Of a stretch of 64,000 nucleotides of DNA, positions 9,838 through 42,004 are shown one piece after another. The notes under the pieces are model-generated. The model saw only the letters and a list, made by a program, of their open reading frames with translations, was not told the DNA's origin and searched no databases. Position 1 is the stretch's first letter. Every line of letters begins with the position of its first letter. Both the position numbers and the translations under genes were made by a program. The stretch comes from Octopus vulgaris. Its lineage: Eukaryota. The DNA lies in the NCBI GenBank assembly GCA_951406725.2, contig OX597822.1, positions 45,818,001 to 45,882,000 of the forward strand, in the 5' to 3' direction.

Positions 9838-9894
<57 letters not shown>

Positions 9895-9898
<4 letters not shown>

Positions 9899-10256
9899 TG
9901 GCGCATATTTGCCATTTGAATATGGCTCACCCATAAGGGTGGATGCTACTGTAGTTTGTAGCCCCAGGAAGATATCTCCTCCAGCTGGCTATAGACAAAC
10001 TATCTGTGTCCTCTCAGTATTTGTGAAGGGAGTCATCCTCCCCGTCTTCAACACATGATACACACGTACCCGAGTTTCAAGGTGTTTACCTTTCATCAGC
10101 GTGTGACAATCATGGTTGTCGACGAGAAGTTAGATCCCTTCACAAATACATATACTTTTTCCAGTGTCGATTGACACTGATATTGAAAAAGTGAAATCAA
10201 ACAATGATTCACCCTTATGGGTGAGCCATATTCAAATGGCAAATATGCGTCATGAT
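9895..10256. mobile_element. Fold-back element with a perfect 40-bp inverted repeat enclosing a hammerhead motif
   Basis: 9902-9941 is the exact reverse complement of 10210-10249. (TA)n tracts lie on both sides. Confidence 0.8.
10061..10105 (-). ncRNA. Minimal type I hammerhead ribozyme
   Basis: Minus strand: CACACG CTGATGA AAGGT-aaac-ACCTT GAAA CTCGGG TA CGTGTG. 6-bp stem I, full core, 5-bp stem II, near-palindromic stem III, GUA cleavage triplet. Confidence 0.85.
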
Positions 10257-10296
10257 GTGTTACCGCTACTGTTTATAACTCGCTCTGAGATTTATC

Positions 10297-10338
<42 letters not shown>

Positions 10339-11656: not shown

Positions 11657-11751
<95 letters not shown>

Positions 11752-12199
11752 TAGCCACTTTAACATGGCTATCCATTCAAATAACCTTTACTAAAAAATT
11801 TTAACCCCAAAAGGACATCTCCAGCTGGTTAACAATGCACAGCTGCATCCAATATATTGTGAGTAGGGGAATGAACCCCTACCACCTTTTAGGGACGGGA
11901 CCTGCAGACCAGCCTGGTTTAGAGCTATTTCTGCCTCTCTTCAGTACTGGACACCTTGTCTGCTAGAGATAACAGCAGCTCACTTCTGCTTGCAATATAT
12001 ATAATTTCAAGCAAATACAGTCGCTAATTTTGCAACAAGCAAAAAGGCTAGTTCTAAAATCACTCTAAGAGACCAACCCAGAGACTTTACTCTTCAAAGG
12101 GACTTTACTGAACACACATATACATACCCTCTTACTCACGTACACGCCCATATTATATATAACACAATTCATACATACACATACATACCAAACTTAGTA

Positions 12200-14796: not shown

Positions 14797-15145
14797 AAGG
14801 CAGCGAGCTGGCAGAATCGTTAGCATGCTAGGCTAAATGCTTAGCAGTATTTCGTCTACCATTATGTTCTGAGTTCAGATTCCGCTGAGGTTGACTTTGC
14901 TTTTCATCCTTTCGGGGTTGATTAAATAAGTACCAGTGAAACACTGGGGTTGATGTAATCGACTAGTCCCTTCCCTCCAAATTTCAGGCCTTGTGCCTAG
15001 AGTAGAAAATATTATTATTATTGAAGGCAGTGAGCTGGCAGAATTGTTTGCACACCGGGTGAAATGCTTAGCGGTATTTCGTCCATCTGCACATTCTGAG
15101 TTCAAATTCTGCCAAGGTCAACTTTACCTTTTTTCCTTTCAGGGG
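14797..15145 (+). mobile_element. tRNA-derived SINE family B, two tandem copies; other copies at about 24800-25340, 48505-48740, 49820-50205 (-) and 62107-62320
   Basis: aaggcRgcgagctggcagaa (A-box) ... gagttcaaattc (B-box) ... ctttgcctttcatcctttcggggtcgat, a conserved core repeated across the window. Confidence 0.8.
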
Positions 15146-15641: not shown

Positions 15642-16019
15642 GTAAACTATACAAACATGTTTTGTGGTGGTGGCGGTGCAACAGGGTGTGGATGGATTGG
15701 TGAAAGATGCCTACCCACACACAACCTGTTTTATTCTTCCATGAATATGTTCCCTTTTATTTTCTTCTATTATTTCATTTTTTGTTTGTTTGTGTTATTT
15801 GTTACTGTACTCTGGGTATTCTTTTGTTTATCTCTACCACTTTTGCTCTTTCTGATGCAGTTCACATGTACTAGATCAGAACTACAGTACCTAATTTTCT
15901 CATCTCAGCACTCTTGAATTATCAGTCTTTACACATTATATACTTACATTTAACACTAACCAAACTAGTAAATTACTATTTTAAAATCTCACAGCAGGAG
16001 ATATTCAGCAAGAATACTT

Positions 16020-16411
16020 TGTAGTAAAGATTGTTTGCCAACATAACATGGCAGTCCTGGTTTAGGACTAATGTTGCTGTAATTTAGCCCCGGGAGACAT
16101 CGTCTCCAGCTGGCTATATGACACGATCTGTATCCTTTTATTTTCGAACAAGGGAATCTAGCATCCTCACTCAGCTCAAAACAATATCTGTGTATCATGA
16201 TTTCTGGGTTATTTCCCTTCATCAGCACAGAATAATTACACAGATATTGTTCTGAGCTGAGTGGGGATGCTAGATTCCTTTGTTTGAAAATATAAGGACA
16301 CAGATCATGTCATATAGCCAGCTGGAGACGATGTCTCCTGGAGCTAAATTACAGCAACATTCGTCCTAAACCAGGACTGCCATGTTATGTTGGCAAACAA
16401 TCTTTACTACA
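16020..16411. mobile_element. Fold-back element: about 175-bp inverted arms with a 42-nt spacer containing a hammerhead core
   Basis: 16020-16194 pairs with 16237-16411, with about 10 mismatches counted by eye. Confidence 0.88.
16187..16231 (-). ncRNA. Minimal type I hammerhead ribozyme
   Basis: Minus strand: TCTGTG CTGATGA aGGG-aaataa-CCCa GAAA TCATGA TA CACAGA. 6-bp stem I, palindromic ATCATGAT stem III, AUA triplet. Stem II has an A.A mismatch at its base. Confidence 0.75.
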
Positions 16412-16669
16412 CAAACCAAACTGTTCTCCAAATCCCTTTTCTTCAAAACAATCTCTTCTGGAATTCTATCCCTGTCAATGCTTTGGCAGCTAGTACAATA
16501 ATACCCACATCACTTTGGCAGCAGTGCCCCAAATATCATAGCCACTTCCCCATCTTCCTTCATTACCTGTCTAATAAATAAAACATGTCTCATCTTTCTT
16601 TCTTTTGTCTGTCTTTTTCTTATCATTTTGATGCTGTTTCCTTCATTTCTGTACTTTTTCTTCTTGCAG

Positions 16670-17805
16670 GAGTCAATAAACTTGATGTCAATGAAGTCAT
16701 CAAATTAGCACAAGATAAACTGGCCAAGAAGTACAAGAAACGCTACTCATTCTCACGCTTGGTCAATGGTTACCGTCGATTCGATCCATATCGGGGAATG
16801 GAGTACATTGTTGATTTTGCACTGGTTGACAACATTGAAAAGAAAACCATTGAAAAACGTCTTCACATGGTGCGTCCACTGGGCCACGTGGAAATCATCC
16901 CTATGCCCTACGTAACAGAGAACACACAGGTGAATCTTATCTTGCCAGTGTCAGACGAGGACAAAAATGAGTTGGGTAGCTTTCTGGACTCTTACGCACA
17001 GAACTGCCTGGATGCTGGCGACAACACCAACCTGCTAATTGTATTCATTTACAAGAACAACTCACACTTGTTGGATGAAGATAAGTTCTACGTACTTAAA
17101 TCAATGATCACATACTATAACAATAAATACCATAAAGAGAAAATCAGATGGGTGAACTACGAAACTGCCAGCATATATGTCCCTGATTTAATGTTAATGG
17201 ATTCTGTCTCACAACATTTCCTACCAGAGTCCCTACTACTTTTGTCAACAGTTGGCATGGACCTAGCAACAGAGTTTTTCAACCGTGTTCGTATGAACAG
17301 CATCCTAAATTGGCAAGTGTTCTTCCCAATTGGTTTCTGGCAATACAAACCAAACTTGATTTACGACAAGCGACCGTACCCTACGTCAATTGACCTCAAG
17401 AGAAATGTCGGCCACTTTGATGTGTATTCCTATGAACACAGCAGCTTCTACAACAAGGACTACCAGGAAGCTCGCAAAAGCATCCCTTCAAAAGAAGTAA
17501 ATAACTATGATCTATTCAGAATGTTCCTCAAACACAAAAAAGTCCATGTGTTGCGTGCAATCGAACCAACGCTGAAGCACCGCTACAAAACAATCAGCTG
17601 CATACAGTCATCACCAAAATACATCTATGAGCGATGCAGGATTCGTCGGCTGGAGGCATTGGCAAACCGGTCTCAACTGGCTCGACTTATATTTGAATAT
17701 GAAGAAAAAATGGAAAAATTAAAGTTGAAGAAAAAGGTGATTTTTAAGGCTGATGAGTCACCAGCAGCCAACAGCAAGAACAAGAAGACAGCACAGAAAT
17801 CTTAG
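16670..17805 (+). CDS. CHPF: CHPF-like terminal coding exon (C-terminal glycosyltransferase-like domain)
   Basis: Acceptor ttcttgcag|GA, open to TAG at 17803-17805. Motifs LVNGYRRFDPYRGMEYIVD, RPLGHVEIIPMPYVTE, FFNRVRMNSILNWQVFFPIGFWQYKP and GHFDVYSYEHSSFYNKDY are diagnostic of CHPF/CHPF2. Confidence 0.95.
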
Positions 17806-40315: not shown

Positions 40316-42004
40316 ATTAAAGAAACCTAGCTGTTTCTTGCAACACATACATCTAACGCAAAATTTTTCAAGGGGCCTCAAAAAACTATTTTGGAGCCAC
40401 AATCTACTATTGTATACTACACAATCTACCCACCAAAATATTATATGGACCCCTGTTGAAAACCATGATTTAATCCCATAGCAGTATTATAACACATATT
40501 TATTACCATTGTTTTGAATTAATCAAGCATTATCTCATAGCTTTGATATTTTAATAACGTGATTGTTTATTTTTAGAATGACATAGTAGTAGGTGTGAGA
40601 GGCCAGATCTAGCCAGTGTGAACATAAAACAGGTGAAATATTTTGGCTGGATTTAAATGCTAAAGGGTTAACATCTGTATTATACGCTGAAATCATCAGC
40701 ATTGTTTAACGTCCGTTTTCCATGCTGGCATAGGTTGGACAGTTTGACCGGGGACTGGCAAGCCAGAAGGCCTCACCAGGCTCCAATCTGATCTTGCAAT
40801 GTTTCTATAGCTGGATGTCCTTCTTAATGCCAACCACTCCGAGAGTGTAGTGGGTGCTTTTTACATGCCACCGGCATGGAAGCCAGTCAGGTAGCACTGG
40901 CATCAGCCATATTAGGATGGTGCTTTTTACATGCTACCGGCACGGGGAGCCAGTCAGGTGGCACTGGCATCAGCCATAATTACAATTTCCATTTGATTGA
41001 GTTGATTTATAATTTTACTTGACTCAATAAGTCTCCTGAAGCATAGCATGTTGCCCAACAATTCAAAGGTACTTTTTAAATGGGTTGGTTATGCGACACT
41101 GGTATAGGCTATGGCTGTGATCTCACTTTACTTGCCAGGTATTCTCAATCACAGCATATCTCTAGAGGTCTCGGTCTTTCATCATTGCCTCTGTAATGCC
41201 CAATGTTCAAAGATTGTTGGACAAAAAATATGGAATGCTTCAGAATTTTGCATGTCATCCTTGCACAGAGGCCACATTAATTTTTTCAGTATCTTCCCAA
41301 TTTTTGTATACGTACTGCCATGTAAATGTGTGTGTGTCTCAGTGTTTAGCATATTCGGCTTGTGCTCAGTTGCAGAACTTCCATAAATCTTGAGTGAAAC
41401 TCACATTAGAATACAGTTCCCTTATTTAAGATGATGTTGTTGAGACACCAACAAACATCTTTGATCGCATCTCCAAATTAAGACCATCCAGCTGATTACC
41501 AAGCTCTCACTCACCAACATATAACAACCAATCCTGAAGATGTGCTGACTCCTCACTCAGCCGATTCTACAGTTATTACAACAGCCTCTGATCCTGGAAA
41601 CTAACAAGATGCACACCAACAATTCCCAGACCAAACCCCATCTTTGCACTACTCCTATGGTAAATCCTTCATCACCAAAACATTATCCCTCTGAAACACC
41701 CAACCAGTCCATGTTTTTTCCTGCAGTCATTGACTTATAATGTTCAAGCTAAATACTCATATTTATCTTAAGAGTCTCACATGACAAGTGAAGGTCATTG
41801 ATGGACCGACTCCTTCCTCATGAATAAAATATTAAAAGACAAAAAAAAAACACATTGCAACACCACCATTATCTCCCATGACCTACACCAACACCCATCA
41901 CTTCCACCACCATCATCCTCCACCATTTTCACTATTCCACTAACACCCCCCTCCAACACCATCTACCCAAAAATCACTATTCACCTCTTCCAGCATCACT
42001 ATAC

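What the first reader, a model, noticed from the sequence alone, without database searches (positions are those of the whole stretch)
16020..16411. 175-bp fold-back whose arms begin at a hammerhead cleavage site
Seen: the apparent MITE has an HHR in its spacer. The duplicated arm starts at TACACAGAT, within 2 nt of the predicted AUA|CACAGA cleavage point, so the sequence 3' of the cut is what is present twice in inverted orientation. Inference: the palindrome may have formed by reverse transcription of a ribozyme-processed RNA, like the inverted pseudo-LTRs of Penelope, rather than by DNA transposition. It would also form a long dsRNA about 260 nt upstream of the last CHPF exon, a plausible ADAR substrate.
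Basis: partly seen in the sequence, partly recalled or inferred. Interest (0 to 1): 0.72.

Follow-up and report, generated by a model that had tools for sequence, protein, structure and literature searches.

The report
Octopus hammerhead retrozyme, back-to-back insertion
This fold-back in an intron of an octopus gene is one of hundreds or more back-to-back insertions of a 353-base protein-less repeat carrying a predicted self-cutting RNA motif, likely copied into the genome by the enzyme of a Penelope-like jumping gene, and in most copies the arms do not begin at the predicted cut site.

Summary
The fold-back is real: 175-bp arms, 94% complementary, with a minus-strand hammerhead motif whose predicted cut lies 2 nt inside one arm. 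The element is larger than reported. It has a one-sided 55-nt tail (15965-16019) and a 14-bp target-site duplication. It is not a MITE. It is a truncated, head-to-head insertion of a 353-nt non-coding repeat unit (756 exact hits of one 35-mer) that joins head to tail and folds as a rod-like circle conserved in two sister families. Across copies the outer ends are two fixed sites (59 of 62), TSDs are about 13 bp (37 of 62), and the inner junctions are scattered. Only 7 of 159 arms stop within 5 nt of the cut (4.5-6.5 expected), and 59 of 66 that reach it read through. So retro-origin is supported and cut-defined arms are not, though a small excess exists in one subset. Best reading: a non-LTR retrozyme inserted by a Penelope-like enzyme priming from both target strands. 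The partner enzyme, ribozyme activity, circular RNA and ADAR editing are unshown. The scan noted this kind of element before on other DNA.

The parts
15953..15966 (+). left target-site duplication (last 2 nt overlap the tail end)
   Evidence: direct repeat D2, 13/14 identical to 16409-16422; TSD scan
15965..16019 (-). 55-nt one-sided tail (unit positions +174 to +228 from the predicted cut)
   Evidence: present on one side in 27 of 28 best copies and on both in 1
16020..16192 (-). sense arm, unit positions +1 to +173 downstream of the predicted cut
16187..16231 (-). minimal type I hammerhead motif: stem I 16231-16226 with 16192-16187; core 16225-16219; stem II GGG/CCC with an A.A mismatch next to the core; GAAA 16204-16201; palindromic stem III; predicted cut 16193|16192. 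Antisense to the host gene
   Evidence: pattern scan and folds; column conservation; activity not tested
16232..16236 (-). remnant of the linker upstream of the hammerhead; the sense arm starts at unit position -44, where it meets the inverted arm
16237..16411 (+). inverted arm, unit positions -1 to +173, no tail
16409..16422 (+). right target-site duplication (first 3 nt overlap the arm end)
15642..16669 (+). host intron (GT..AG, 1028 nt) holding the insertion
   Evidence: spliced reads in all 4 runs laid
16670..17805 (+). last coding exon of chondroitin sulfate synthase 2 / CHPF
   Evidence: ORF, PF05679, homologues
9893..10300 (.). sister family B insertion with the same back-to-back layout, hammerhead core at 10099 (-), set in TA repeats

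Best explanation
This is a 5'-truncated, head-to-head insertion of a 353-nt non-coding hammerhead repeat (a non-LTR retrozyme), likely made by a Penelope-like reverse transcriptase-endonuclease acting in trans on a multimeric or circular RNA. Shown: a unit that joins head to tail, two fixed outer ends (+173 and +228), a TSD of about 13 bp, scattered inner junctions with 2-3 nt overlaps, and arms that run through the predicted cut, some for more than one unit. Inferred: the endonuclease nicks both target strands about 13 bp apart; each 3'-OH primes its own cDNA, one at the +173 site and one at the +228 site; each cDNA stops at a variable point; the two are joined by microhomology. The hammerhead would serve upstream of this, cutting multimeric transcripts as a dimer into monomers that circularise; it does not set the arm length. 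This copy is most likely inert: it has a single motif, antisense to the host gene, and its stem I is outcompeted by the 175-bp arms.
For: Outer ends one of each kind in 59 of 62 insertions; TSD in 37 of 62 (9-17 bp, mode 13) against 1 of 310 mismatched controls. Inverted arm in 74 of 88 loci chosen without regard to the junction. Upstream of the hammerhead lies the unit's own linker and tail; a real 353-nt cut-to-cut dimer exists in L011. Four arms pass a second cut site and none stops within 10 nt of it; in sister B one locus has arms of 725 and 804 nt at about 100% identity. Circular fold z -6.95. Of the pairs predicted from A alone, 82 of 108 hold in B and 83 of 110 in C, 23 each with changes on both sides, against 37-51 when slid. 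Stem III is a different palindrome in each family and pairs as a dimer in cofolding. Junction overlap of 2 nt or more in 35 of 60 against 26% of 562 simulated blunt joins. In 18 of 45 insertions neither arm is nested in the other, so one is not a snap-back copy of the other. In young family B the two arms differ at 1.13 per 100 sites against 3.50 between insertions (14 insertions; lowest of 200 shuffles 2.82). PMC11167929: a Penelope-type protein cuts and extends both strands and starts at two internal RNA sites that bound the tail.
Against: No autonomous partner sharing this sequence was found: 54 loci of Penelope-like ORFs examined out of 6136 GIY-YIG candidates. The ORF families checked for their ends finish in TA repeats, while family A does not. 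No evidence of cleavage or of circular RNA. The pair closing stem II is a mismatch in family A, so activity is uncertain. The same-template test is inconclusive for family A (6.8 against 7.3 differences per 100, lowest shuffle 6.77), and arm-to-arm gene conversion could mimic it in B. The tail (55 nt) is longer than the 30-40 nt described. 25 of 62 insertions failed my TSD rule, and 14 of 88 loci had no inverted arm. Long arms fit linear multimers as well as circles.
Confidence: 0.75

Rival explanations
1. Stump of an ordinary autonomous Penelope-like element: inverted pLTR plus tail, with no separate retrozyme unit.
For: Inverted pLTR, one-sided tail and 8-10 bp TSD are the described layout (PMC3846280 passages; PMC8557442 passages). 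The hammerhead is of the minimal, palindromic type found in pLTRs (PMC4209133 passages). The genome is rich in such elements.
Against: Arms that extend upstream continue through a fixed linker into their own tail (23 of 112 arms start at or before -135). The 40 hammerhead-anchored loci with about 2.5 kb upstream share no junction-proximal sequence, and only 2 of 177 family-A loci hold a short endonuclease fragment, away from the element. The rod pairs across the unit junction and the unit length is kept in three families.
Confidence: 0.1
2. One reading: the arm starts where reverse transcriptase runs off the 5' end of a hammerhead-cleaved RNA. It may be true for this one copy and a minority of others.
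For: This copy's arm starts 2 nt from the cut. In insertions whose other arm spans the hammerhead, 5 of 47 arms stop within 5 nt (1.2-1.7 expected; uncorrected P 0.007-0.03).
Against: 2 of 112 in the junction-blind set; pooled 7 of 159, not above background; 59 of 66 read through. Run-off would end at +1, whereas this arm includes 2 nt upstream of the cut (one may be microhomology). PMC11167929: hammerhead mutants insert normally in vitro. Stem I self-complementarity can itself place junctions near the cut.
Confidence: 0.12
3. Self-priming: one cDNA folds back and copies itself (proposed for Penelope inverted junctions in PMC3846280).
For: Arms share a template in family B; 27 of 45 insertions are nested, this copy's geometry is nested too; short junction overlaps.
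Against: 18 of 45 insertions have neither arm nested in the other; two fixed outer ends are more simply two priming events.
Confidence: 0.07
4. DNA-transposon MITE with long terminal inverted repeats.
For: The 40 best hits to the full 392-bp query look like fixed-length palindromes.
Against: That is selection by the query. Junctions differ per copy, arm lengths vary widely, the two ends are unequal, and the TSD is 9-17 bp.
Confidence: 0.01

Closest known systems
Metazoan non-LTR retrozymes (Cervera and de la Pena 2020, PMC7229834, parts 2-4 of 6 read; Li, Clavereau and Pollet 2026, bioRxiv 10.64898/2026.07.22.740005, parts 1-3 of 5 read)
   Same: Non-coding head-to-tail unit of 170-400 nt (mussel 350-390, axolotl 330 and 350) with one type I hammerhead, self-paired predicted circle, GC under 50%, TSD longer than 4 bp; proposed to depend on Penelope-like elements.
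   Different: Here most copies are dispersed, sub-unit, head-to-head insertions with two fixed ends, not long tandem arrays. The words 'inverted' (outside one reference title), 'tail' and 'octopus' do not occur in either main text. Their link to Penelope-like elements rests on co-occurrence and pLTR homology, not on insertion signature. Cleavage and circles were shown for coral, mussel and axolotl, not here. Supplements were not seen.
Insertions of endonuclease-bearing Penelope-like elements (Arkhipova et al. 2013, PMC3846280; Craig et al. 2021, PMC8557442; passages only)
   Same: Head-to-head inverted 5'-truncated copy, tail on one end only, TSD of about 8-10 bp, microhomology junctions, hammerhead in the terminal repeat.
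   Different: No ORF; the unit closes on itself; the tail is 55 nt rather than 30-40; TSD mode 13.
Poseidon element of Anolis in vitro (Frangieh et al. 2024, PMC11167929, parts 1-2 of 4 read)
   Same: Two internal initiation sites that bound the tail, both target strands cut and extended, AT-rich targets (TSDs here 73% AT), hammerhead cleavage not needed for insertion.
   Different: Autonomous and protein-coding; start sites lie about 85-125 nt after the cut (my estimate from their numbering), against 173 and 228 here; a circular template was not part of what I read.
Minimal dimer-type hammerheads of Penelope-like elements (PMC4209133, passages)
   Same: Short palindromic helix III, predicted to work as a dimer; pairs of motifs on opposite strands 100-700 bp apart were noted in Schistosoma.
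   Different: The conserved G10.1-C11.1 pair is not present in family A (A opposite G or A).

Membership tests
Non-LTR retrozyme | Head-to-tail unit of 150-450 nt with one type I hammerhead | tested here: met
   353-nt cut-to-cut unit, real dimer in L011; linker joins tail to hammerhead
Non-LTR retrozyme | Non-coding, no LTR/PBS/PPT, no linked ORF | tested here: met
   longest stop-free stretch about 75 codons; no shared upstream sequence in 40 loci; PBS and PPT were not searched separately
Non-LTR retrozyme | Highly self-paired predicted circle with the hammerhead free | tested here: met
   z -6.95; conserved with compensatory changes in B and C
Non-LTR retrozyme | Self-cleavage of the RNA | not testable with these tools
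   motif only; stem II closing pair is a mismatch
Non-LTR retrozyme | Expressed as monomeric linear and circular RNA | tested here: inconclusive
   raw reads differ from the window by fixed exon changes; family reads present on both arms, no pile-up at the cut listed; family B barely covered
Penelope-like insertion signature | Head-to-head inverted 5'-truncated copy | tested here: met
   74 of 88 loci
Penelope-like insertion signature | Tail on one end only (two start sites) | tested here: met
   59 of 62; 55 nt, longer than the 30-40 described
Penelope-like insertion signature | TSD of variable length | tested here: met
   37 of 62, 9-17 bp; control 1 of 310
Autonomous Penelope-like element | RT plus GIY-YIG ORF between pLTRs | tested here: not met
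Non-autonomous partner of a named Penelope-like family | Shares terminal sequence with an autonomous element in the genome | tested here: inconclusive
   no match in 54 loci other than separate insertions; 150 of 6136 candidates scored
MITE / DNA transposon | Fixed symmetric termini and a uniform superfamily TSD | tested here: not met
   unequal ends, variable arms and junctions, 9-17 bp TSD; superfamily TSD lengths are recalled
ADAR substrate | A-to-G changes in reads from this locus | tested here: inconclusive
   depth was zero or near zero in the intron on both sides, so reads on the arms come from other copies; no matched DNA

The most novel reading that the evidence does not exclude
Octopus carries a clan of at least three related 353-357-nt circular hammerhead RNAs that are inserted by a Penelope-like enzyme priming both strands of the target on one RNA molecule at two fixed sites, reading round the circle. 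This would be insertion-level evidence that Penelope-like elements mobilise retrozymes, would explain Penelope's inverted repeats and tail as two-strand priming, and would make these families a source of thousands of long intronic RNA duplexes in an animal known for heavy RNA editing.
Probability: 0.45. Interest if true: 0.65.

Novelty: new member of a known kind. Interest (0 to 1): 0.42.

Why it matters
Which enzyme moves animal retrozymes is stated as a hypothesis in PMC7229834 and argued from co-occurrence and homology in the 2026 preprint; how Penelope-like elements make inverted repeats with a one-sided tail is also unsettled. These families carry the full Penelope-type signature on a protein-less, self-closing unit. 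Young family B and intact 781- and 785-codon Penelope-like ORFs coexist in the genome, so both questions can be tested in vitro. For annotation, such palindromes are easily filed as MITEs. For the host gene, this copy is most likely neutral.

Tried and rejected
Rfam scan of the window: no hammerhead family hit. The first 28 loci came from the full 392-bp query and are biased towards this copy's geometry, so they were not used for junction statistics. Partner search: GIY-YIG family search, 48 loci compared with the units, RT search and 6 loci of a second intact family; no shared terminal sequence. The match in L174 is a separate family-C insertion about 600 nt beyond the ORF element's end; the one in L178 is a separate family-A insertion. 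The look-up of sequencing runs: no RNA holder listed. Reads on family B: 14-34 reads per raw run, mostly under 90% alike, no joints or pile-ups; uninformative. Same-template test in family A: inconclusive. Look-up of earlier findings by sequence: nothing. L093 and L129 were dropped as duplicates of L092 and L128; L295 has the same junction as L128 and was left in the pooled count; L047 was left out as the same locus as L014. Complex junctions (18 of 88; 16 of 92 anchored loci) and loci without an inverted arm (14 of 88; 29 of 92) were not in breakpoint counts. Literature searches found no paper on octopus retrozymes or on head-to-head retrozyme insertions; the library lacks most subscription papers and Repbase/Dfam were not available.

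Full report
Observation. The arms are at 16020-16194 and 16237-16411, 175 nt with 10 mismatches and a 42-nt spacer. A type I hammerhead pattern lies on the minus strand, with the predicted cut between 16193 and 16192; the duplicated arm begins 2 nt upstream of it. Rfam did not detect it. The element sits in the 1028-nt intron 15642-16669, confirmed by spliced reads, 258 nt before the last coding exon of a chondroitin synthase gene that is 100% identical to an Octopus sinensis entry.

True limits. The genome holds 3235 candidates, of which 40 were scored. In the 28 loci returned, the spacer differs between copies. One arm continues for a further 55 nt in 27 of 28 and both do in one. With this tail included, 21 of 28 have a flanking direct repeat scoring 8 or more, against 1.7% of 526 mismatched pairs. 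Here the tail is 15965-16019 and the TSD is 15953-15966 / 16409-16422.

The unit. In the copies anchored just upstream of the hammerhead, the sequence further upstream is a linker that runs back into the element's own tail (19 matches). L011 holds a real cut-to-cut unit of 353 nt. The family majority sequence has no long ORF and folds as a circle at -118.7 kcal/mol, z -6.95 against 100 shuffles, as a rod that extends stem I and leaves the hammerhead open. Two sister families exist: B, with a copy at window 9893-10300, and C. They are 353 and 357 nt and 59% and 57% identical to A. Of the pairs predicted from A alone, 82 of 108 hold in B and 83 of 110 in C, 23 each with changes on both sides, against 37-51 when the partner is slid by 1-3 columns. 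Stem III is a different palindrome in each family and forms an 8-bp helix in dimer cofolds, the type described as working as a dimer (PMC4209133, passages). In A the pair closing stem II is a mismatch, so activity is open.

To avoid selecting on the junction I took loci by an exact 35-mer near the arm end (756 matches). I examined 90 loci from the first 100 listed matches and dropped 2 duplicates. Of 88, 56 are simple fold-backs, 18 complex and 14 have no inverted arm. Outer ends are one short (about +173) and one tail end (about +228) in 59 of 62; 37 of 62 have a TSD of 9-17 bp, mode 13, against 1 of 310 controls. Inner breakpoints run from -493 to +210; 2 of 112 lie within 5 nt of the cut, 3.4 expected. 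A further 92 loci anchored on or beside the hammerhead gave 47 simple inverted arms, 5 within 5 nt (1.2-1.7 expected, uncorrected P 0.007-0.03). Pooled, 7 of 159 do (4.5-6.5 expected, P 0.17-0.47), and 59 of 66 arms that reach the cut read through. Breakpoints are BLAST ends, good to a few nt. The cut is therefore not the rule; a minor run-off component is not excluded, and this copy could be such a case.

Mechanism. The layout is what two cDNAs would give if primed from staggered nicks on opposite strands at two fixed RNA sites and joined at their far ends (inference). Junctions overlap by 2 nt or more in 35 of 60, against 26% of 562 simulated blunt joins. In 18 of 45 insertions neither arm is contained in the other, which excludes snap-back copying as the sole route; snap-back on an antisense template was the proposal in PMC3846280 (passages). 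In young family B the two arms of an insertion differ at 1.13 per 100 non-CpG sites against 3.50 between insertions, suggesting one template; in older family A the test is inconclusive. Four A arms pass a second cut site, and one B locus has arms of 725 and 804 nt, so the template was a multimer or a circle; the data do not tell these apart. A purified Penelope-type protein cuts and extends both strands, starts at two internal sites that bound the tail, and inserts normally with a dead hammerhead (PMC11167929).

Partner. The genome has 6136 GIY-YIG candidates, 150 scored, including intact 781- and 785-codon ORFs. The proteins printed carry the cysteine linker before the endonuclease that PMC8557442 ties to Neptune. 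None of 54 loci shares terminal sequence with the units except as separate insertions. The ORF families checked and sisters B and C mostly end in TA repeats; family A inserts in AT-rich unique sites. The driver of A is not identified.

This copy in its gene. The hammerhead is antisense to the pre-mRNA, single, and in the minus-strand fold with longer flanks the arms displace stem I, so it should not cut the host RNA (inference). The + strand forms a 175-bp duplex of -308.8 kcal/mol. Heavy A-to-I editing in octopus is recalled knowledge. The raw reads differ from the window at many fixed exon positions and have almost no depth in the flanking intron, so reads on the arms come from other copies and editing is untested.

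Comparison and verdict. It works like, and by the testable features is, a non-LTR retrozyme (PMC7229834), bearing the known Penelope-type signature of inverted copy, tail and TSD. A 2026 preprint argues that animal retrozymes are non-autonomous Penelope-like sequences, from co-occurrence and pLTR homology in vertebrates. Neither retrozyme paper's main text mentions inverted insertions, tails or octopus; supplements were not seen. Searches found no such report. Earlier notes of this scan describe the same kind of element in this genome and in others; they are not independent support. Verdict: a new member of a known kind; interest 0.42, chiefly for the junction statistics that make the Penelope mechanism testable.

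Noticed in passing
window 9893-10300: Sister retrozyme family B, head-to-head in TA repeats; 2447 candidates, best copies 97-98% alike; L204 has arms of more than two units each at about 100% identity, so it is probably still active.
   Followed up: yes
window 11743-11888 (-): Degraded match to the three-family profile (E 3e-8), next to CA/TA repeats: an older related family.
   Followed up: partly
L168:2245-4587 (G000:C16:20834500-20841500): Intact 781-codon Penelope-like RT/GIY-YIG ORF with many near-identical copies, an upstream 359-codon frame, a 40-nt tail and TA-repeat ends. Relatives carry a hammerhead-like core with U and A in place of C3 and G8.
   Followed up: partly
L226-L231: Second intact Penelope-like family (about 785 codons, 74% identical in the RT), several copies with inverted 5' segments.
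   Followed up: partly
L174:1821-4983: Older ORF-bearing element with the same head-to-head layout (766-nt arms, 100% identical, tail on one side) and a palindromic-stem-III hammerhead seen in its relative L185.
   Followed up: partly
window 41224-41329 (-): Full-length diverged U6 snRNA match (63 bits, above the gathering score), probably a retrocopy.
   Followed up: no
window 14797-14917 and 15024-15144: 121-nt direct repeat, 77% identical, 227 nt apart.
   Followed up: no
L092/L093 and L128/L129/L295: Copies with the same junction at nearby loci, probably local segmental duplications.
   Followed up: no
L179, L181, L184: Further hammerhead motifs of other families near Penelope-like ORFs; in L179 two lie on opposite strands 40 nt apart.
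   Followed up: no
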